A stretch of DNA of 32,278 bases, taken from the sequence record SRR31156797_1811; one strand, written 5' to 3'. A program made the translations under genes and the position numbers. Each line of letters opens with the position of its first letter. The stretch's first letter is position 1. Below the pieces are notes generated by a model. The model was not told the origin of the DNA and searched no databases. It saw only the letters and a list, made by a program, of their open reading frames with translations. Below, in pieces: positions 1 through 6,622 of the stretch.

Positions 1-26
1 CTCTTTTTTAGAATCGAACTCGGGTT
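1..26. mobile_element. Probable terminal inverted repeat of an IS982-like element (rest lies outside the window)
   Basis: Reverse complement of 1-25 reads ACCCGAGTTCGATTCTAAAAAAGAG, and 5'-ACCC is the conserved IS982-family terminus. IS110-like coding sequence begins abruptly at 27, and that frame has a TAG at 9-11. Confidence 0.45.
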
Positions 27-1028
27 AGTAGCTTTTTACCTGACAATGAAACAGAACAATTACGCACTTATTGTCGGCATCGCTCTAATCTTATCAATAT
101 GGCAGCTTCAACATCAAAAAGGATGCAAAAATACTTACGTCTGCTTAATTTAAGATTAGATGTTGTTGTTAAAGATGTTTGTGGATTGACAGGACTAAAG
201 ATTATACGTGCTATTAGTAGCGGAGAAAATGATCCGAAAAAATTGGCATCTCTACGTCACTATAATTGCAGAAAAAGTGAAGAAGAGATTGCTAAAGCAT
301 TACACTCAAATGGTAGAAAAGATTACTTATTTGCATTACGTCAGGAACTGGAAACTTATGACCACTTACAGAACAAGATCCAACAATGTGATTTAGAAAT
401 AGAACAGATGCTTAATCAGATTATCGATAATGACGTAAAAAAAGAACATACAATAGAACCCAAACCATATAAGCGTCTAAATAAGAACACCCCCAAAAAT
501 ATTGATATTAATCTTAAAGGATATCAAATGCTTGAAAGAACTGATCTTTTAGCAATAGAAGGTATGAGTCATTTAACGGTATTGGCAATCATAAGTGAAA
601 TTGGAATTGAAGGGATAAGAAAGCTTCCAACTGCTAAACACTTTACTAGTTGGCTTCGAATAGCTCCCAATAATAAAGTTAGTGGGGGTAAAGTATTATC
701 CAGCAAAGTTCCCAAAGGTAGTAATCGTGTAAAAATAGCATTAAGACGTGCTGCCAATGCAATTGGAAACTTGAAAGACTCTACTCCCTTAAGAGATTTT
801 TTTCATCGAATTAATTTCAGGAAAGGTCGAGTATCTGCCATCAGTGCTACTGCACGTAAACTAGCAGTCATTATTTGGAATATGATTATTCATAATAAAC
901 CATACATTAATCCGGAAGGATACTTATATTTAGATCAGAAAAGAAAGCTTGGCATTGCCAAAAGAATACAAAAACAGATTGACAAATACGGAATTAACCC
1001 TAATGATCTTGATTTTACATCTGGTTGA
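27..1028 (+). mobile_element. IS110-family transposase, 5'-truncated (N-terminal DEDD/RuvC domain missing)
   Basis: The frame stays open upstream of the ATG at 99 (SSFLPDNETEQLRTYCRHRSNLIN). It has IS116/IS110/IS902-type C-terminal motifs LLAIEGMSHLTVLAIISEIG, FTSWLRIAP..SGGK and AISATARKLAVIIW. An in-frame stop at 9-11 cuts off the N-terminus. Confidence 0.85.
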
Positions 1029-1234
1029 TATATAGGATTTTAATTTTACGTTAGTCAGAATATAAAAGTAGGCAGTTCGACAAATCTACACTTTAACAAT
1101 CATAAATCGAAAATCCACATATCGTCAACCTCAATTCATAGAACCTAATTCCTTGACTAACAAAACTCTTGTTTCGAACTGTTCAAAAAGCACGAAAAAC
1201 ACACTTTTTTACCATGGCAGTAGCAAAAAAATTA

Positions 1235-1242
1235 TAAATTTG
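1235..1242 (+). promoter_or_regulatory. Bacteroidota sigma-A -7 promoter element (TAnnTTTG)
   Basis: TAAATTTG at 1235-1242, about 20 nt before the likely upxY start. The -33 TTTG match is poor (ATGG near 1214). Confidence 0.55.
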
Positions 1243-1264
1243 CTTGTTCGAAAATCGAAGTATT

Positions 1265-1774
1265 TTGAAAGAAGACACAACAACGCATACCTGGTATGCT
1301 TTATATACCAAATCAAGAGCTGAAAAAAAAGTTGCTGAGGGACTAAATAAAATTGGAATTACCAATTACCTTCCTTTGAAAAAGGAGTTAAAACAATGGA
1401 GTGACCGCAAAAAATGGGTCGAATCTCCGGCTATTAGCTCCTATATCTTTGTTCACATCACTCCTAATCAATACCGGTCTGTTTTTGAAGTAAATGGCGT
1501 TGTTGCCTATGTGGCACACAAGGGTAATGCATTAAGTATTCCCGAGCATGAAATTTATGCTATGAAGCAAACCATTGAGAATAAGATCGCTTTCGATGTT
1601 GAAGCAACAAATATTATAAAAGGAGAGGAAATTACTGTAACCTCAGGTCCTTTAAAAGGTATAAGCGGGATAGTGAATTCAATACAGGGGACAAAAAAGC
1701 TTTATTTAAATATTTCGAATATTGGTTATACCTTGGTTGTAGACTTAAATGATGCTATGATTGAGAGGAAATAA
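1265..1774 (+). CDS. upxY: UpxY-family (NusG/RfaH-like) transcription antiterminator
   Basis: NGN motif WYALYTKSRAEKKV..YLPL..WSDRKK..SYIFV and KOW motif GEEITVTSGPLKGISG. TTG at 1265 is preferred over 1244, which abuts the -7 box. Confidence 0.92.
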   Translation: MKEDTTTHTWYALYTKSRAEKKVAEGLNKIGITNYLPLKKELKQWSDRKKWVESPAISSYIFVHITPNQYRSVFEVNGVVAYVAHKGNALSIPEHEIYAMKQTIENKIAFDVEATNIIKGEEITVTSGPLKGISGIVNSIQGTKKLYLNISNIGYTLVVDLNDAMIERK

Positions 1775-1896
1775 ATATATCTATTAAAAAGTAGTTGAAT
1801 TGATCAAATATGTAATCGAGTAATATCATTTCTTATTTGATTTTCCTTTTGCTTAGTTTGTAGCTAAGTGACATAATAAAAGCGAGTTGTATTTTG

Positions 1897-1943
1897 CTCA
1901 CTCCATATGATATGGGACTGAGGGAGGCGAAGCTGTGGAGTGA
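1897..1943 (+). promoter_or_regulatory. Candidate ops-like pause / UpxY loading element
   Basis: Hairpin 1897-1922 (CTCA..CCATA-tga-TATGG..TGAG), then GCGAAGC at 1927-1933. A competing perfect 8-bp stem pairs TCACTCCA (1898-1905) with TGGAGTGA (1936-1943). The segment is GC-rich within an AT-rich spacer. Confidence 0.55.
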
Positions 1944-1944
1944 T

Positions 1945-2006
1945 ATAAGGTTAAAGTTGATAAGGTTAAAATGAGAAAAGGTAAAACTCTTAAGCTTAAA
2001 AGTTAG
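1945..2006 (+). repeat. Family-A short repeats, G/T-rich arm
   Basis: ATAAGGTTAAA at 1945-1955 and 1960-1970, with degenerate copies AAAGGTAAAA (1977-1986) and TAAGCTTAAAAGT (1991-2003). Confidence 0.75.
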
Positions 2007-2010
2007 GAAA

Positions 2011-2393
2011 ATTGAAAAAGATCTGGCAGAGAGGTTATTTAATTTTGCTGTTTTACTCATTAAAACCACCCGAAGATTACCTTATAAGCAGGAATTCAAA
2101 ATAATATCATATCAACTGATTAAATCCTCTTCTTGTGTTGGTGCTAATTATGAAGAAGCACAAGGAGCTGTATCTAAAAGCTGATTTTATAAATAAAATA
2201 GGAATTTGTCTAAAAGAAATCAGAGACGATTTATTGGATTAAGATTCTTATTGAAATATCAGATAACAACAACGAATGGACTCCTTTAAAACAAGAATCA
2301 GAAGAAATCATGAAAATAATAGGTTCTATTTATTTTAAAACATCCATCAAGAGATATAAAAATCACTTTAACCTATACACTTATAGCCTTTAA
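2011..2393 (+). pseudogene. Four-helix-bundle protein (23S rRNA-IVP / TIGR02436-like) pseudogene
   Basis: Three frame segments join into EKDLAERLFNFAVLLIK..QLIKSSSCVGANYEEAQGAVSK / ADFINKIGICLKEIR / TIYWIKILIEISD..LKQESEEIMKIIGSI. There is an extra A near 2176-2179, a 2-nt loss near 2222-2226, and ATT rather than ATG at 2011. Not in the ORF track. Confidence 0.88.
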
Positions 2394-2426
2394 CCTTAAT
2401 TAAGTACTTTAACCCTTAACCTTTAT
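2364..2426 (+). repeat. Family-A roughly 7-nt periodic repeats, C/T-rich arm (complement of 1945-1970 and 3034-3047)
   Basis: CACTTTA ACCTATA CACTTAT AGCCTTT AACCTTA .. ACTTTAA CCCTTAA CCTTTAT. CTTTAACCTTA (2388-2398) is the exact reverse complement of 1946-1956. Confidence 0.75.
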
Positions 2427-2446
2427 AAACATTAAATCTTATTAAA

Positions 2447-3037
2447 ATGAGCATTCATCCAACAGACATATACCTGACGCGTGCAGATAAAGAACAATAC
2501 CTAAAGCAAAATGCTAAAGTGATCTGGATAACAGGATTAAGTGGTTCAGGTAAAAGTACATTGGCCAGTGGTTTGGAAAGAAGGTTAGCTGAAAGAGGGT
2601 ATTTTACACAGGTTCTGGACGGGGATAATATCCGATCAGGTATAAATAAAAACTTAGGTTTTACTGATGAAGATAGAACGGAAAATATACGTCGTATTGC
2701 CGAAGTAAACAAGTTGTTTTTAAACTGTGGTATTATTACCTTAAATGCTTTTGTATCGCCGACCAACGCGATTCGTCATATGGCAAGAGAAATTATCGGT
2801 AATGAAGATTTTATAGAAATATTTGTTGATGCCAGTTTTGATACTTGTGCTCAACGCGATCCGAAAGGGCTCTATAAAAAAGCACTGGCTGGTGAAATTA
2901 AAAACTTTACCGGACTGGATGCTCCTTTTGACAAACCGGATGATGCGGAAGTAACCATCAATACTGATGAGTTGAGTATTGAGGAGGGTGTAGAGAAAGC
3001 TTTAGCTTATGTGTTGAATAAGGTCAATAAGAGTTAA
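2447..3037 (+). CDS. cysC: Adenylyl-sulfate (APS) kinase, PAPS-forming
   Basis: WITGLSGSGKST P-loop, LDGDNIR, DRTENIRRIAEV, RDPKGLYKKA and FTGLDAPF. Confidence 0.97.
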   Translation: MSIHPTDIYLTRADKEQYLKQNAKVIWITGLSGSGKSTLASGLERRLAERGYFTQVLDGDNIRSGINKNLGFTDEDRTENIRRIAEVNKLFLNCGIITLNAFVSPTNAIRHMAREIIGNEDFIEIFVDASFDTCAQRDPKGLYKKALAGEIKNFTGLDAPFDKPDDAEVTINTDELSIEEGVEKALAYVLNKVNKS

Positions 3038-3106
3038 GGTTAAAGTAATAAGTATTCAGCGAACAGCTAACAACTTAAAGCTAGCAGCTAAGAACTAAAA
3101 ACTAAT
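3034..3106 (+). repeat. Hybrid spacer: family-A arm followed by a family-B heptamer array
   Basis: TTAAGGTTAAAGTA (3034-3047) overlaps the cysC stop. Seven heptamers follow at 3058-3106: AGCGAAC AGCTAAC AACTTAA AGCTAGC AGCTAAG AACTAAA AACTAAT, ending 2 nt before the wzm ATG. Confidence 0.85.
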
Positions 3107-3108
3107 AA

Positions 3109-3969
3109 ATGAATTCCGAATCTCAGCATACAAAAACAACAGTATATCAGGCTCAGGATAGTTTATCTTTAAGAAAAATTTTCATAGAACTGCTGATTGA
3201 TATAAAACCAGCCAGAGAATTAGGATTACAACTGGCTAAAAGAGATATAAAAGCTGCATACAGACAATCACTATTAGGTATTTTATGGGCATTTATACCA
3301 CCGTTAATGAACTCATTAATATGGATTGTTCTGAATAGCTCAAAAACAGTTACTATTCAAAAAACACCGATTCCTTATCCTGCATTTGTATTAATTGGTA
3401 CCTTAATGTGGCAGGTCTTAACAGAATCGGTCAATCAACCTTTGCGTAGTGTTAAATCAGGAAAAAGTATATTAGCTAAACTAAATTTCCCCAGAGAATC
3501 ATTATTATTTCATGGTTTTTTCACCTTACTGTTCAATACTCTATTAAAGTTAACAATTATTGTAGCAGTACTATTGGTATTTAAAATCAACCCGGGTTGG
3601 CAAGGACTTGGGTTTATTCCAATGCTAATTGGTTTGATGATAACAGGTTTCTCTATTGGAATGCTTGTTTTACCAGTGGGCATGATGTATGGAGATATTT
3701 CGCGGATGATTCCATTGGCAATGCAATTTCTAATGTTACTAACTCCGGTGGTTTTTCCAATGCCTGAGTCTGGTAAGTTGTTGATGTTTAATCAGATTAA
3801 TCCATTTTCGTATTTAATAGAAACTACTCGAAACCTATTAACAGCTCAAGCTATTCCCAATTTGGTTCCAACATTAAGTATACTCGGAGTAGCATTTGTA
3901 TTTTTAATAATTGCCGTGATTGTGTATCGCTTTATCATGCCTATTATTATTGAACGTGTCGGTGCGTAA
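3109..3969 (+). CDS. wzm: ABC-2 polysaccharide exporter permease
   Basis: KRDIKAAYRQSLLGILWAFIPP, KLNFPRE, LTPVVFP and NPFSYLIE motifs, with several hydrophobic helices. Confidence 0.93.
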   Translation: MNSESQHTKTTVYQAQDSLSLRKIFIELLIDIKPARELGLQLAKRDIKAAYRQSLLGILWAFIPPLMNSLIWIVLNSSKTVTIQKTPIPYPAFVLIGTLMWQVLTESVNQPLRSVKSGKSILAKLNFPRESLLFHGFFTLLFNTLLKLTIIVAVLLVFKINPGWQGLGFIPMLIGLMITGFSIGMLVLPVGMMYGDISRMIPLAMQFLMLLTPVVFPMPESGKLLMFNQINPFSYLIETTRNLLTAQAIPNLVPTLSILGVAFVFLIIAVIVYRFIMPIIIERVGA

Positions 3970-4047
3970 TAGCTGTTAGGGAATAGTTCTTAGCTAGTAG
4001 GTAGCTGCTAACACCTAAGAACTAACAGCTACTAGCTAAAAACTAAC
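3968..4047 (+). repeat. Family-B heptamers in inverted arrangement
   Basis: Reverse units at 3968-4002 (AATAGCT GTTAGGG AATAGTT CTTAGCT AGTAGGT) and forward units at 4006-4047 (TGCTAAC ACCTAAG AACTAAC AGCTACT AGCTAAA AACTAAC). 3984-4000 pairs with 4029-4045 at 16/17. Confidence 0.88.
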
Positions 4048-4051
4048 AACA

Positions 4052-4411
4052 ATGAGTAATTTTGGATTTAAAGAATTGACCGTTTGGCGAAGAGCTCTTG
4101 AATTTGCAAACTCTGTAATTGAACTCACAGAATCTTTAAATTCACACCATAAACATTATCGCTTAATCGAACAGATAGAATCGTCATCAGCATCTATTGC
4201 ACAAAATATTGCAGAAGGAAAAGGTAGATATTCTAAGAAGGAATTTAAGCAGTTCCTTTATTACTCCAGAGGATCATTATTCGAAACCGTAACTCTTCTT
4301 AATCTTTTTGCGTTAAGAAATTGGATTACGAATAATGAATTGGAGAAACTCGAAAATGAAGCCAATGAAATTGGCAAAATGTTAAATGGACTAATCAATA
4401 GTATCAAGTAG
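4052..4411 (+). CDS. Four-helix-bundle protein (23S rRNA-IVP family, Avd-like fold)
   Basis: 119 aa with FKELTVWRRA, QIESSSASIAQNIAEG.GR.SKKEF..FL..SRGSL.E and EIGKMLNGLI. Confidence 0.93.
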   Translation: MSNFGFKELTVWRRALEFANSVIELTESLNSHHKHYRLIEQIESSSASIAQNIAEGKGRYSKKEFKQFLYYSRGSLFETVTLLNLFALRNWITNNELEKLENEANEIGKMLNGLINSIK

Positions 4412-4511
4412 CTCTTAGGACGCTTCGCTTTAGTTCTTAGTAATCAATTCGTAACAACTACGAGCTAAGAACTAACAACTACGAGCTAAGAACTAACAAC
4501 TAATAACTAAA
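4407..4511 (+). repeat. Family-B heptamers: reverse arm, then forward array with a perfect 21-bp tandem duplication
   Basis: Reverse units AGTAGCT CTTAGGA .. TTTAGTT CTTAGTA (4407-4442). TAACAACTACGAGCTAAGAAC x2.4 at 4452-4502. The array ends 1 nt before the wzt ATG. Confidence 0.9.
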
Positions 4512-4512
4512 A

Positions 4513-5736
4513 ATGTCTGAAGTACTCGTAAAAGTAGAAAACGTATCTAAAAAATTCAGCCGTGATTTAAAAAAATCATTATGGTATGGTGTTAAAGATA
4601 TGAGTTCTGCTTTATTTACTAATAATACCAACCATAGTGAACTACGCCCATCTGAATTCTGGGCTGTAAAAGATGTAAGTTTTGAATTACGCCGGGGAGA
4701 GTGTTTAGGACTAATCGGGCATAATGGAGCAGGAAAATCAACATTGCTAAAAATACTTAATGGTTTAATACGTCCTGATGAAGGAAAAATAACCATGCAT
4801 GGACGAATTGGGGCATTGATAGAGCTTGGAGCAGGTTTTAACCCCATTCTTACGGGTCGTGAAAACATATACAATAATGGTGCGGTATTAGGTTTTTCTA
4901 AAAAAGAGATTGATGCCAAGTTAGAGGCGATTATTGAATTTTCAGAGATAGGGGATTTTATAGATACACCTGTTCAAAATTATAGCTCTGGGATGAAAGT
5001 ACGATTGGGCTTTGCGGTAGCAGCCCAAATGGAACCTGATGTGTTAATTATTGATGAAGTATTAGCCGTTGGAGATGTAGGATTTAGAACCAAATGTTTA
5101 AATCGTATTACGGAATTAATGAAATCGAGTGCTGTAATTTTTGTTTCACATTCTATGCCATTAATTGCAAGGACTTGTAATAAAGTTCTATTTATGGCAA
5201 AAGGGAAAAGCGCTTTTTTTGGGAATGAAATAGCTTATGGTATAGAATTATATTATGATTCCTTTCAAGCAGAACAAAAAAATATAATTGGAAAAGAAAA
5301 AATAATAATCAATGATCTTCAAATTCAGAATGAAAAAATAGATGTAGATCAATCAGGAGTAATTGAGGTAAAAACTTATGATAAGATTCAAATACTTATA
5401 AGTTTTATTTCAAAAGTTAATATTGATTATTTAAATATTGTTATTATTATAAAGAATAAAAATTTGCAACAGGTTGCGGCTCTTTTTTCAAGAAGTGATA
5501 ATTTTATTATTAAAAATACAAATGAGCAAATGACATGTAAACTAACCTTTATTAATTCTTTAACACCGGGAGTGTATACTATTGATCTTGCATTTGTTGA
5601 ATCATATTCAAATGATATTCACAAAGTAGGTAAAGTAATTAGTAACTATCAATCAATTGCATCTCTAAAAATAAAAATAGATAAAGTAGTAAATCATATT
5701 CCTGTTCAATTTAAGGGGCTTTGGGAAATAGTTTAA
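4513..5736 (+). CDS. wzt: ABC polysaccharide exporter ATPase with C-terminal Wzt_C-like domain
   Basis: Walker A GHNGAGKST, signature YSSGMKVRLGFA, Walker B LIIDEVLAVGD, VSH switch, and a beta-rich C-terminal extension of about 150 aa. Confidence 0.95.
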   Translation: MSEVLVKVENVSKKFSRDLKKSLWYGVKDMSSALFTNNTNHSELRPSEFWAVKDVSFELRRGECLGLIGHNGAGKSTLLKILNGLIRPDEGKITMHGRIGALIELGAGFNPILTGRENIYNNGAVLGFSKKEIDAKLEAIIEFSEIGDFIDTPVQNYSSGMKVRLGFAVAAQMEPDVLIIDEVLAVGDVGFRTKCLNRITELMKSSAVIFVSHSMPLIARTCNKVLFMAKGKSAFFGNEIAYGIELYYDSFQAEQKNIIGKEKIIINDLQIQNEKIDVDQSGVIEVKTYDKIQILISFISKVNIDYLNIVIIIKNKNLQQVAALFSRSDNFIIKNTNEQMTCKLTFINSLTPGVYTIDLAFVESYSNDIHKVGKVISNYQSIASLKIKIDKVVNHIPVQFKGLWEIV

Positions 5737-5749
5737 TCAGTTTATAATA

Positions 5750-6622
5750 ATGAAATTAATACAAGGAATTAGGAATAAACTTTTATTAGGAAACCAAGAT
5801 AAAAAACTACCCTTAAGAAGTTTTCCAAGTAATCAAACAAATGCACCAACATGTATTATAGGTAATGCAATCCCTAAAAGTGGAACATACTTACTTAATA
5901 GCATTTTTAAATACCTTAATTTATGGTCTCCAACTAATGTTCATTTGTTAGATTCTCAGTACTTTATTATGCATTCAGATAAGGATACTAGCGTTATAAG
6001 GGAGCAATCTAATAATTCACTTAAGAAAATATTAAATGGTCAAATAGTAGCTGCTCATCTTCATTGGAATAAGGAAATTGGAGACTATTTAAATGAGCAT
6101 AGAAATATAAAGCACATTTTTATGTATCGAGATCCTCGAGACATTTTTGTGAGTTTTAAAAACTACATGACCTATTCTAAGGCAGCTGCTCACTGGTGGA
6201 AGCCAAGAAAAGAACAACAGTTTCTTAATTCATTTTTTAATAATGATGACGATCGTTTATGGTACCTTATTGTTGAATATATGAAAAGGGAAAACTGGGA
6301 AGATTACCTTCCTTGGTTCTCCCATGATAACACACATATATTAAAATTTGAAGATCTTTATTTAGAAATCAGTTTATTAAAGAAAGATGGTTTTGGTAAG
6401 TGTTTAAAAGGACTTTTTGAATATCTGGAAGTAGATATTAAAGAGCACGATCCCGAAATATTTTATGATAATGTAATGGGTAAAGGCTATACTTCTACGG
6501 GAGATTTAGATAAAATAGAACGATATAAAAAAGAGTTCAAAGTACAACACTATAATTTATTAAATACCGAATCATTTAAAGAAATACTTAGAAGTTTTGG
6601 ATATGAATGGTACCAACCTTAA
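5750..6622 (+). CDS. Sulfotransferase-domain protein
   Basis: 5'-PSB-like IPKSGTYLL, 3'-PB-like YRDPRDIFVS, and LKFEDL. Confidence 0.8.
   Translation: MKLIQGIRNKLLLGNQDKKLPLRSFPSNQTNAPTCIIGNAIPKSGTYLLNSIFKYLNLWSPTNVHLLDSQYFIMHSDKDTSVIREQSNNSLKKILNGQIVAAHLHWNKEIGDYLNEHRNIKHIFMYRDPRDIFVSFKNYMTYSKAAAHWWKPRKEQQFLNSFFNNDDDRLWYLIVEYMKRENWEDYLPWFSHDNTHILKFEDLYLEISLLKKDGFGKCLKGLFEYLEVDIKEHDPEIFYDNVMGKGYTSTGDLDKIERYKKEFKVQHYNLLNTESFKEILRSFGYEWYQP

What the first reader, a model, noticed from the sequence alone, without database searches (positions are those of the whole stretch)
1945..4512. Four-helix-bundle genes embedded in a network of complementary heptamer-repeat arms: candidate undescribed RNA-structure or mobile-cassette system
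Seen: five consecutive spacers consist of about 7-nt periodic repeats, and I saw no comparable array in any spacer downstream of wzt. The repeats therefore co-localise with the two FHB genes. G/T-rich arms overlap stop codons (3034, 3968, 4407) or precede the FHB pseudogene. C/A-rich arrays run up to start codons (wzm, FHB, wzt) or end about 20 nt before one (cysC). Both FHB genes are enclosed by complementary arms: 1946-1956 with 2388-2398 (11/11), and 3984-4000 with 4458-4474 (16/17). Known: this protein family was first found inside stem-bounded, excised 23S rRNA intervening sequences, and it shares its fold with the pentameric nucleic-acid-binding DGR protein Avd. Inference: these may be mRNA-level intervening elements looped or cut out of the operon transcript, mobile cassettes whose arms are their signature, or binding arrays wrapped by an oligomeric FHB ring (TRAP-like). 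I cannot verify novelty.
Basis: partly seen in the sequence, partly recalled or inferred. Interest (0 to 1): 0.85.

Follow-up and report, generated by a model that had tools for sequence, protein, structure and literature searches.

The report
Heptamer-armed four-helix-bundle gene cassettes
Two small genes of the "ribosomal-RNA intervening-sequence protein" family sit inside a sugar-coat operon as inserted units, each closed by mirror-image runs of 7-base repeats; the same build surrounds this gene family in many bacterial groups and ties it to the long-unexplained 7-base repeats of bacterial genomes.

Summary
The observation largely holds. One intact PF05635/TIGR02436 gene (4052-4411) and one decayed copy (about 2005-2362) lie in a UpxY-cysC-wzm-wzt polysaccharide operon. 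The stated arm pairs are exact, at 11/11 and 16/17. Three of the five spacers are strongly 7-periodic (z 6.3-7.3), and two are weak.

The build is a family rule. In 76 of 106 PF05635 loci, from over ten phylum-level groups, the two flanks pair better than 95% of mismatched flanks. Strong periodicity is almost only lag 7, 8 or 14.

The unit behaves as a cassette:
- The wzm-wzt junction holds an orthologous gene in G005 (82% aa identity, dN/dS 0.06).
- It holds an unrelated GxxExxY cassette in G011.
- It holds nothing in G001, the nearest genome, most simply by loss.

My best reading is an IVS-like, operon-embedded cassette whose arms close a long stem, as in the Coxiella 23S IVS. RNA cutting is inferred, not shown.

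Three results argue against a strict protein-repeat link:
- Gene-free arrays outnumber the genes.
- Arrays occur in three genomes without the gene.
- Repeat word and protein similarity co-vary only among close kin.

This scan has noted the same cassette class many times on other DNA. I found no paper stating the general rule.

The parts
1938..1990 (+). G/T-rich upstream arm of the decayed cassette (two copies of TAAGGTTAAAGT at 1946 and 1961)
   Evidence: Direct repeat family D3 and inverted pairs I6 and I11. G 0.25, C 0.04; lag-7 periodicity is weak (z 1.0).
2005..2362 (+). Four-helix-bundle pseudogene of the L005/L036 type, with at least one stop and one frameshift
   Evidence: Three-frame translation and tblastn hits at window 2029-2187 and 2223-2342. 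It is not orthologous to the intact gene at the same site in G001.
2362..2446 (+). C/A-rich downstream arm of the decayed cassette, ending about 20 nt before the cysC start
   Evidence: Pairs I6 and I11 with 1946-1974; also pairs I1 and I13 with 3019-3049. G 0.02, C 0.21; lag 7 is the best lag (z 2.1).
2447..3037 (+). cysC (APS kinase), a host gene
   Evidence: PF01583, E 9e-62. Only 85-87% identical to G001/X1, while wzm is 98%.
3034..3108 (+). Gene-free heptamer spacer: a G-type word TAAGGTTAAAGT followed by a C/A array of period 7/21 that runs up to the wzm start
   Evidence: TRF 3064-3104, period 21. Lag-7 z 6.4. G001 has about 290 nt of arrays at this position.
3109..3969 (+). wzm (ABC permease), a host gene
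   Evidence: NF050109 match, E 8e-17, below its cut-off. 98% identical to G001.
3967..4004 (+). G/T-rich 5' arm of the intact cassette (TAGNNNN x5), overlapping the wzm stop
   Evidence: Pairs I2-I5 and I12. Pairs with the 3' arm in the minimum-free-energy fold. Sequence read.
4005..4051 (+). Inner C/A-rich array (CTANNNN x6) that runs up to the FHB start codon
   Evidence: TRF 4008-4050, period 7. Direct repeat of 4451-4500 at 82% (family D1).
4052..4411 (+). Intact four-helix-bundle gene, 119 aa
   Evidence: PF05635, E 5.7e-33. TIGR02436, E 1.5e-33. PDB relatives 2gsc and 2rld. 82% identical to the G005 ortholog, with dN/dS 0.064.
4407..4451 (+). Inner G/T-rich stretch after the FHB stop
   Evidence: Sequence read. 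Forms a local hairpin with the start of the 3' array in the fold.
4452..4512 (+). C/A-rich 3' arm (21-nt unit made of 3 heptamers, 2.4 copies at 100% identity) that runs up to the wzt start
   Evidence: TRF 4452-4502, period 21, score 102. 16/17 complementarity with 3984-4000. The same array type occurs at more than 20 places in G011.
4513..5736 (+). wzt (ABC ATPase with Wzt_C domain), a host gene
   Evidence: PF00005, E 2.8e-25, and PF14524.

Best explanation
Both four-helix-bundle (FHB) genes are the cargo of small, apparently promoterless cassettes set in line inside the host operon. Each cassette reads: G-rich heptamer array, PF05635 ORF, complementary C-rich heptamer array. This is the same build as the ORF-bearing intervening sequence (IVS) of 23S rRNA, found here between protein genes.

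Shown:
- The build is a family-wide rule.
- The unit is gained, lost and replaced independently of its neighbours.
- The gene is co-oriented with its neighbours.
- The protein is under strong purifying selection.
- Strict heptamer arrays go with this cargo and not with a second cassette family that uses the same sites.

Inferred:
- The cassette is transcribed with the operon.
- The two arms pair into a long stem that loops out the ORF.
- As in the 23S IVS, the stem is cut by RNase III. This would free the flanking cistrons and leave an unstructured C/A-rich leader on the downstream gene.
- The ring-forming protein binds the arrays of its own and of gene-free copies.

The gene-free heptamer spacer between cysC and wzm, and the many like it in the nearest genome, are most simply relatives or remnants of such cassettes. 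Recombination between the direct copies of the arrays (4001-4050 and 4451-4500) could remove the gene and leave one spacer, which is the state seen in G001.
For: Family rule.
- In 106 PF05635 loci, best flank complementarity has a median of 16.5 matched against 8.0 mismatched. The set is 33 loci from relatives plus the window, and 73 of 80 loci from the search for related loci; loci with ORFs under 90 aa, flanks under 120 nt or no start codon were dropped.
- 76 of 106 exceed the 95th percentile of mismatched pairs and 59 of 106 exceed the 99th.
- Strong periodicity has best lag 7, 8 or 14 in 47 of 106 upstream and 45 of 106 downstream flanks, and no other lag from 2 to 15.
- The upstream arm has G>C in 63 of 76 significant loci.

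Enrichment. Only 7 of 329 spacers in 800 kb of FHB-free G001 DNA pass the same criterion at lag 7 or 14.

Cassette behaviour.
- G001 lacks window 3976-4499 between wzm (98% identical) and wzt (99% over window 4500-5000).
- G005 has the orthologous gene at the junction (82% aa; dN/dS 0.064).
- G011 has a TIGR04256 gene there, with its own inverted arms.
- The pre-cysC site holds non-orthologous FHB genes with different arms in the window and in G001.
- At one orthologous site in the genus, the arm word differs between species yet both arms change together: AGTATAAAG with CTTTATACT, against AGTATCAAG with CTTGATACT.

Operon setting. The gene is co-oriented with both neighbours in 85 of 98 loci, against 307 of 515 (60%) of genes in the G001 sample.

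Cargo-specific arms. GxxExxY cassettes have complementary flanks in 26 of 39 loci, but lag-7 arrays in 0 of 39.

Folds. Long-range closure is predicted for the window cassette (z -4.49) and for the G005 cassette (z -2.05).

Precedent (passages read, PMC4990558). The Coxiella IVS has a 28-bp stem of terminal inverted repeats. It has tandem GACAGAT heptamers before the S23p start, and RNase III cuts at the first repeat in vitro.

Ring form. PDB relatives 2gsc and 2rld each have five chains per entry. The same paper cites a homopentameric toroid.

Link between genes and arrays.
- In 201 Bacteroidota genomes, CAG- or GAC-type five-unit arrays occur in 110 of 162 genomes with the gene and in 5 of 39 without it (odds ratio 14, rho 0.49; related genomes are not independent).
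- 10 of 11 gene-free arrays in G001 use a word within one mismatch of a resident FHB arm word. The control mean is 2.3, and 0 of 1000 draws reach 10.
Against: - No transcript data. No RNA run is listed, so cutting and even co-transcription remain unshown.
- Mismatches in the arms show no G.U bias (60 G.U-compatible against 55 A.C; 149 transversions). The polarity therefore gives no direct RNA signal.
- In the window, each spacer also forms a local hairpin as good as the long-range pair (I12, 94%).
- The pseudogene cassette folds no better than shuffles (z -0.66).
- 30 of 106 loci show no arm complementarity above the 95th percentile.
- No enzyme for mobility is known, and the ORF has no catalytic signature.
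- The wzm-wzt polymorphism is most simply a loss, so no fresh insertion is documented here.
- Gene-free arrays outnumber the genes. By extrapolation from 7 per 800 kb there would be about 50 per G001 genome, against 5 genes.
- G176, G194 and G221 have arrays (145, 35 and 9 pattern hits) but no PF05635, TIGR02436 or PF22296 match.
- G011 has more than 20 arrays of the window's word. The three of its five FHB genes whose proteins I resolved are only 32-36% identical to the window's, and those and a fourth (L017) carry other arm words; the fifth (L221) was not resolved.
- Arm word and protein identity are unrelated below 60% identity (rho -0.011; 191 of 500 permutations as low).
Confidence: 0.6

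Rival explanations
1. The heptamer arrays are a host feature. They would be slippage-prone simple repeats, or translation leaders of operon spacers, that exist independently of the FHB gene. On this view the gene merely lands in, or survives best in, the loops of pre-existing heptamer hairpins, so the arms are a target site and not part of the element.
For: - Arrays without a gene are several-fold more numerous than genes in G001 (7 of 329 spacers in 800 kb; examples).
- They have the same layout: stop codon, G-type arm, C-type arm, start codon.
- Three genomes have arrays but no gene.
- G011 has more than 20 arrays of the window's word without a matching FHB.
- There is no word-to-protein covariation below 60% identity.
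- Heptamer repeats before start codons are described without any link to this protein (PMC4679880, section 10 and term search read).
- Tandem heptamers are reported as the most abundant intergenic repeats, with no clue to function (10.1101/309039, passages read).
Against: - GxxExxY cassettes use the same junctions, namely wzm-wzt in G011 and the L001-type site in G005, yet lag-7 arrays flank 0 of 39 of them. FHB flanks show such arrays in 47 and 45 of 106. The heptamers therefore follow the cargo and not the site.
- The arm-gene-arm build recurs in phyla with very different base composition, each with its own word.
- Arrays are rare in genomes without the gene (5 of 39) and rise with copy number, reaching 91% of genomes with 11 or more copies.
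Confidence: 0.15
2. A REPIN-RAYT-like partnership. The FHB protein would be the trans-acting partner that spreads, homogenises or maintains the dispersed heptamer hairpins. The gene flanked by inverted arrays would be the master copy, and the gene-free hairpins would be its non-autonomous relatives.
For: - Genome-level association and dose response.
- Gene-free arrays in G001 share words with resident FHB arms in 10 of 11 cases.
- Both arms change word together between species at one site, which points to a homogenising process.
- The gene is under purifying selection.
Against: - A 119-aa helical bundle has no known nuclease or recombinase chemistry.
- Arrays occur in FHB-free genomes.
- Several different words coexist in one genome.
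- The REPIN-RAYT comparison is recalled from memory and comes from no call.
Confidence: 0.15
3. A TRAP-like translational regulator. The pentameric ring would wrap the single-stranded C/A-rich heptamer array ahead of start codons and tune translation of the downstream gene and of itself. The complementarity of the arms would be secondary.
For: - The arrays abut start codons (wzm, FHB and wzt in the window; median gap to the next gene 53 nt).
- Five chains per PDB entry in relatives.
- Many arms run to about five heptamer units, for example TAGNNNN x5 in the window.
- Avd homology is weak: NF033474 scores 25.4 bits against a cut-off of 80.
Against: - Nothing tested here speaks for binding.
- Conserved complementarity between the two flanks (76 of 106) is not explained by binding to a single strand.
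- An earlier claim in this scan that the protein reads the repeat base by base is marked as partly fallen.
Confidence: 0.1

Closest known systems
ORF-bearing intervening sequence (IVS) of 23S rRNA, S23p type (Coxiella burnetii; Leptospira by citation). PMC4990558, passages read.
   Same: - The same protein family in the loop (PF05635).
- Terminal inverted repeats that form the closing stem.
- Tandem heptamers ahead of the ORF start.
- A size of roughly 450-550 nt.
- Transcription from the host operon.
   Different: - It sits between protein-coding genes of an mRNA operon, not in helix 25 or 45 of 23S rRNA.
- Cutting by RNase III is not shown here.
- Each side carries both a G-type and a C-type array.
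- The protein is clearly under selection (dN/dS 0.06), whereas the Coxiella ORF is described as decaying.
Intergenic TAACTGA-type heptamer direct repeats of Beggiatoaceae, Cyanobacteria and Bacteroidetes (MacGregor 2015). PMC4679880, abstract, section 10 and term search read.
   Same: - Heptamer arrays immediately upstream of start codons, or in reverse orientation just after stop codons.
- Length changes in steps of 7 between strains.
- Present in Bacteroidetes. G001 carries TAACTGA-containing arrays.
   Different: - That paper does not mention the 23S IVS protein (0 hits for '23S', 'intervening' or 'helix bundle').
- It does not describe the inverted pairing around a gene.
DGR accessory protein Avd. 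PMC10053308, passages read.
   Same: A four-helix-bundle fold family. The paper states that PF05635 resembles Avd.
   Different: - The Avd model NF033474 scores 25.4 bits against a cut-off of 80.
- No reverse transcriptase is found among the 28 of 34 listed window ORFs scanned, which run up to 27527.
- I did not look for a TR/VR pair.
REPIN-RAYT systems and integron gene cassettes (both recalled, from no call).
   Same: - A gene flanked by inverted copies of a repeat that is also dispersed without the gene.
- Promoterless single-gene units co-oriented with host transcription.
   Different: - There is no transposase or integrase.
- The repeat is a tandem heptamer array whose word differs from copy to copy.

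Membership tests
PF05635 / TIGR02436 four-helix-bundle (23S rRNA IVS protein) family | Match to the family model above its curated cut-off | tested here: met
   PF05635 scores 113.7 bits against 33.8. TIGR02436 scores 115.2 bits against 24.
PF05635 / TIGR02436 four-helix-bundle (23S rRNA IVS protein) family | Four-helix-bundle fold and homopentameric ring | tested here: inconclusive
   There are sequence matches to 2gsc (E 6e-10) and 2rld (E 4e-8), each with 5 chains per entry. The pentamer is cited in PMC4990558. I made no model or complex prediction for this protein.
ORF-bearing 23S rRNA intervening sequence | Located inside a 23S rRNA gene (helix 25 or 45) | tested here: not met
   It lies between wzm and wzt, and ahead of cysC. 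There is no rRNA or other Rfam match in 1-6000.
ORF-bearing 23S rRNA intervening sequence | Terminal inverted repeats that close a stem around the ORF | tested here: met
   Pairs of 16/17 and 11/11. The minimum-free-energy fold closes the long-range stem (z -4.49). 76 of 106 family loci score above the control.
ORF-bearing 23S rRNA intervening sequence | Excision from the precursor by RNase III | not testable with these tools
   No RNA run is listed for this DNA.
ORF-bearing 23S rRNA intervening sequence | Tandem heptamers ahead of the ORF (as reported for Coxiella) | tested here: met
   TRF 4008-4050, period 7. Lag-7 z 7.3.
Diversity-generating retroelement (Avd component) | Avd equivalog score, a nearby reverse transcriptase and a TR/VR pair | tested here: not met
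   NF033474 scores 25.4 bits against a cut-off of 80. No RT family appears among the 28 of 34 listed ORFs scanned. I did not search for TR/VR.
TAACTGA-type intergenic heptamer repeats (MacGregor 2015) | Tandem heptamers within a few nucleotides upstream of a start codon | tested here: met
   The arrays end at the start codons of wzm, FHB and wzt. The word here is CTAANAA rather than TAACTGA.

The most novel reading that the evidence does not exclude
PF05635 proteins would be the missing protein partner of the tandem heptamer repeats, which have been reported as the most abundant intergenic repeats of prokaryotes with no known function. On this reading the pentameric ring binds heptamer arrays. 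Gene-bearing hairpins are the master copies of a pan-bacterial family of elements, and the gene-free hairpins populate operon spacers and shape mRNA processing or translation. The classical 23S rRNA IVS would then be just one insertion site of this system.
Probability: 0.25. Interest if true: 0.85.

Novelty: new variant of a known kind. Interest (0 to 1): 0.7.

Why it matters
PF05635/TIGR02436 is a very large family with no assigned function. In the sample here it occurs at 1-19 copies in 162 of 201 Bacteroidota genomes. Tandem heptamers are a long-noted but unexplained feature of bacterial intergenic DNA.

The gene almost always travels inside a hairpin made of heptamer arrays. The arrays track the gene across genomes, and the classical 23S IVS is one instance of the same unit. 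Together these facts turn three loose observations into one testable system.

For operon biology, it would mean that many polycistronic mRNAs carry built-in long stems next to start codons. For this window, it explains the odd spacers of a sulfated-polysaccharide operon. It also marks them as places where the locus has been rearranged.

Tried and rejected
- Own genome. It is not held, so I used the nearest genome, G001, and its relatives.
- RNA evidence. No RNA holder is listed for window 1800-4700. The one run listed, X1 (contigs, kind unknown), carries a G001-like layout: a different 565-nt filling ahead of cysC, 244 nt between cysC and wzm, and 41 nt between wzm and wzt. It may be the same strain as G001 and is not independent support.
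- Rfam. Only two chance-level snoRNA matches in 1-6000.
- First attempt at search for related loci. The 22-sequence alignment had no stretch conserved enough. A 9-sequence alignment worked.
- G.U wobble test for a sense-RNA signature. No bias (60 against 55, p 0.71). Most mismatches are register effects between variant units, so the test has little power.
- Word-to-protein code. No relation below 60% identity. The sample is narrow because all proteins were picked by likeness to one alignment.
- Idea that TAG every 7 nt supplies stop codons in all three frames. This holds for the window's word, but words such as AGTATCA contain no stop codon (one search list). I dropped it as a general explanation.
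- RNAduplex energies on 130-nt flanks. Matched mean -46.7 against mismatched -32.3 kcal/mol, and rank 1 in 11 of 34. I replaced this with the ungapped score on more loci.
- One G011 FHB locus (L221) was not resolved by my ORF script.
- No structure or complex prediction was run. Supplementary tables of the papers could not be read. MacGregor's supplementary tables of flanking ORFs might show FHB genes next to the repeats.

Full report
**What is in the window**

The window opens with an IS110-family transposase gene (99-1028). A UpxY-type antiterminator gene follows (1244-1774). After that comes one long same-strand operon for a sulfated polysaccharide: cysC, wzm, wzt, sulfotransferases, sugar-nucleotide enzymes and many glycosyltransferases.

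Two members of the PF05635/TIGR02436 four-helix-bundle (FHB) family lie in its first 3 kb. The intact gene is at 4052-4411, between wzm and wzt (PF05635 E 5.7e-33; TIGR02436 E 1.5e-33). A decayed copy with at least one stop and one frameshift lies at about 2005-2362, between the operon leader and cysC.

**The observation**

Arm 1946-1956 pairs with 2388-2398 at 11/11, and 3984-4000 pairs with 4458-4474 at 16/17.

Lag-7 periodicity is strong in three spacers: 3034-3108, 3967-4051 and 4407-4512 (z 6.4, 7.3 and 6.3 against shuffles). It is weak in 2362-2446 (z 2.1) and absent in 1938-1990 (z 1.0, which is really a 15-nt direct repeat). Eight other spacers of the window give z between -1.3 and 1.3. 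TRF agrees.

Two cautions apply.
- The 5' arm of the intact cassette pairs just as well with the array right behind it (I12, 94%). Even so, the minimum-free-energy RNA fold of 3960-4520 chooses the long-range closure (z -4.49).
- Taken alone, the arm scores are modest. The intact cassette scores 14.5, between the 95th (11.5) and 99th (14.8) percentile of mismatched FHB flanks. The pseudogene pair is borderline, and its fold is no better than shuffles.

The case therefore rests on the family, not on this one copy.

**The family rule**

The nearest held genome, G001, shares 53% of 31-mers with the window and has five PF05635 genes. Of 31 relatives, 29 have the gene, with up to 16 copies each. 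A degenerate-motif scan of one genome per species gave 80 more loci. They come from Bacteroidota, Acidobacteriota, Clostridia, Planctomycetota, Verrucomicrobiota, Chloroflexota, Elusimicrobiota, Nitrospirota, Patescibacteria, Desulfobacterota, Ignavibacteria and a Luteimonas.

The printed flanks show the same picture almost everywhere. There is a G-rich array of roughly 7-nt words upstream and the complementary C-rich array downstream, and the word differs from locus to locus.

I dropped ORFs under 90 aa, flanks under 120 nt and two loci with no start codon, which left 106 loci.
- The best ungapped complementarity between a gene's own flanks has a median of 16.5, against 8.0 for flanks of different genes.
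- 76 of 106 exceed the 95th percentile of that control, and 59 exceed the 99th.
- Where self-identity over 28 nt reaches 75%, the best lag is 7, 8 or 14 in 47 of 106 upstream and 45 of 106 downstream flanks, and never another lag from 2 to 15.
- The upstream arm is richer in G than in C in 63 of 76 significant loci.
- The gene is co-oriented with both neighbours in 85 of 98 loci, against 60% of genes in a G001 sample.

**Are the arrays specific to the gene?**

Partly. In 800 kb of G001 that holds no FHB gene, 7 of 329 spacers pass the same criterion at lag 7 or 14. The arrays are therefore about 20-fold enriched beside the gene. Scaled to the genome, however, gene-free arrays outnumber the five genes several-fold. 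They have the same layout of stop codon, G-type arm, C-type arm and start codon.

Ten of eleven gene-free arrays in G001 use a word within one mismatch of a resident FHB arm word. The control mean is 2.3, and 0 of 1000 draws reach 10.

Across 201 Bacteroidota genomes, five-unit CAG- or GAC-type arrays occur in 110 of 162 genomes with the gene and in 5 of 39 without it. Frequency rises with copy number, from 13% at zero copies to 91% at eleven or more. Related genomes are not independent, so the p-value overstates the case.

The exceptions matter. G176, G194 and G221 have arrays but no PF05635, TIGR02436 or PF22296 match.

**Cassette behaviour**

At the wzm-wzt junction, G001 has a 62-nt spacer where the window has 543 nt. 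The flanking genes are 98-99% identical there.

G005 is a more distant member of the genus (72% DNA identity here). It carries the orthologous FHB gene at the same junction: 82% amino-acid identity, dN/dS 0.064 with saturated dS. Its arms are built on the same TTCTTAG/CTAAGAA word but in different numbers. The empty G001 site is therefore most simply a loss. The direct copies of the C-type array on either side of the gene (4001-4050 and 4451-4500, 82% identical) offer an obvious route for that deletion.

G011 carries a different small gene at this junction, a GxxExxY protein (TIGR04256, E 8e-42), with its own inverted arms.

Ahead of cysC, the window's pseudogene is of the L005/L036 type. G001 has an intact gene of another subfamily there, with different arms.

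At a further orthologous site in the genus, species differ in the arm word yet both arms change together. G005 has a GxxExxY cassette at that site.

**A useful contrast**

GxxExxY cassettes share sites and lifestyle with the FHB cassettes, and their flanks pair too (26 of 39 above the 95th percentile). They carry no lag-7 arrays at all (0 of 39 on either side). Their arms use a CRCARAG-like word at looser spacing. The heptamer array therefore follows the FHB cargo, not the insertion site. That is the best argument here against the view that the gene merely lands in host repeats.

**Mechanism**

The Coxiella 23S IVS is the closest described relative. It has an S23p ORF, a 28-bp stem of terminal inverted repeats and tandem GACAGAT heptamers before the start codon. 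RNase III cleaves at the first repeat in vitro (PMC4990558, passages read).

By analogy, I propose that the operon transcript folds the two arms into a stem that is cut. This would free the neighbours and leave a C/A-rich leader on wzt. Folds of the window and G005 cassettes close that stem.

This step is inferred. No RNA run is listed, Rfam is silent, and a G.U tolerance test gave no sense-strand signal.

Whether the ring-forming protein binds the arrays is open. The ring form rests on five chains per entry in 2gsc and 2rld. Below 60% protein identity the arm word is unrelated to the protein. G011 has more than 20 arrays of the window's word; none of the three of its five FHB genes whose proteins I resolved is close to the window's (32-36% identity), and those and a fourth carry other arm words.

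**What is known**

Several pieces are in print.
- Heptamer repeats before start codons in Beggiatoaceae, Cyanobacteria and Bacteroidetes (PMC4679880; abstract, section 10 and a term search read). That paper has no mention of the IVS protein.
- G-rich heptamers of Xanthomonas and Nostoc (PMC4692102, passages read), again with no mention of the protein.
- The statement that tandem heptamers are the most abundant intergenic repeats, with no clue to function (10.1101/309039, passages read).

My full-text searches found only the Coxiella paper combining heptamers, IVS and inverted repeats. The searches were for PF05635/TIGR02436/S23p, for heptamer plus intervening sequence plus 23S plus inverted repeat, and for heptamer terms plus four-helix bundle or Avd. 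I found no paper stating the general rule. Subscription journals and supplements were not searchable.

This scan's own notes list the same cassette class many times on other DNA. I re-tested the main claims rather than relying on those notes. One earlier claim, that the word is specific to the protein subfamily, is not borne out in my sample.

**Verdict**

This is a real feature. It is an IVS-like, heptamer-armed FHB cassette in an mRNA operon, and one member of a pan-bacterial class that is a new variant of a known kind. The RNA-processing and protein-binding steps are inferred and unproven.

Noticed in passing
L162 2121-2507 (-) = G011 wzm-wzt junction; also L174 (G005) and L172-L219: A second small-gene family, GxxExxY (TIGR04256, a predicted nuclease-fold protein), occupies the same intergenic junctions as the FHB cassettes. 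It is likewise flanked by complementary arms (26 of 39 loci), but these carry a CRCARAG-like word at looser spacing and no heptamer arrays.
   Followed up: partly
L034 1302-1960 (G024): An FHB cassette with heptamer arms (CAATGAA-type) sits between two tRNA-Leu genes on the same strand. It therefore lies inside a tRNA transcription unit rather than an mRNA or rRNA operon.
   Followed up: partly
window 1938-3108 against 3109-5200: Identity to G001/X1 is mosaic: UpxY about 95%, cysC 85-87%, wzm 98%, wzt 97-99%. The jumps fall in the array-bearing spacers, so the FHB-plus-cysC block seems to have been exchanged with breakpoints in the repeats.
   Followed up: no
L224-L235 (G011, more than 20 places): Arrays of the window's CTAAGAA word are dispersed through G011. 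They are often joined to a conserved stretch of about 60 nt (…ttgctgcgcaaat…ttgaaata…cctaac…) and to arrays of other words. This looks like a composite dispersed repeat of its own.
   Followed up: no
G176, G194, G221 (whole genomes): These three Bacteroidota genomes have CAG- or GAC-type heptamer arrays (145, 35 and 9 pattern hits). They have no match to PF05635, TIGR02436 or PF22296.
   Followed up: partly
L220 (G011:C38:44688-46205): This FHB cassette has reversed arm polarity. Long C-type arrays (CATACGC/CATAAGT) lie upstream and G-type arrays (GACGTAG/GACATAG) lie downstream, each over 100 nt long.
   Followed up: no
L010 3590-3880 (G001 cysC-wzm spacer): G001 has about 290 nt of several different heptamer arrays and a hairpin with no ORF at the position where the window has a 71-nt spacer. 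This may be the remnant of a lost cassette.
   Followed up: no
window 99-1028: An IS110-family transposase gene (PF02371) lies directly upstream of the UpxY gene at the head of the polysaccharide locus.
   Followed up: no
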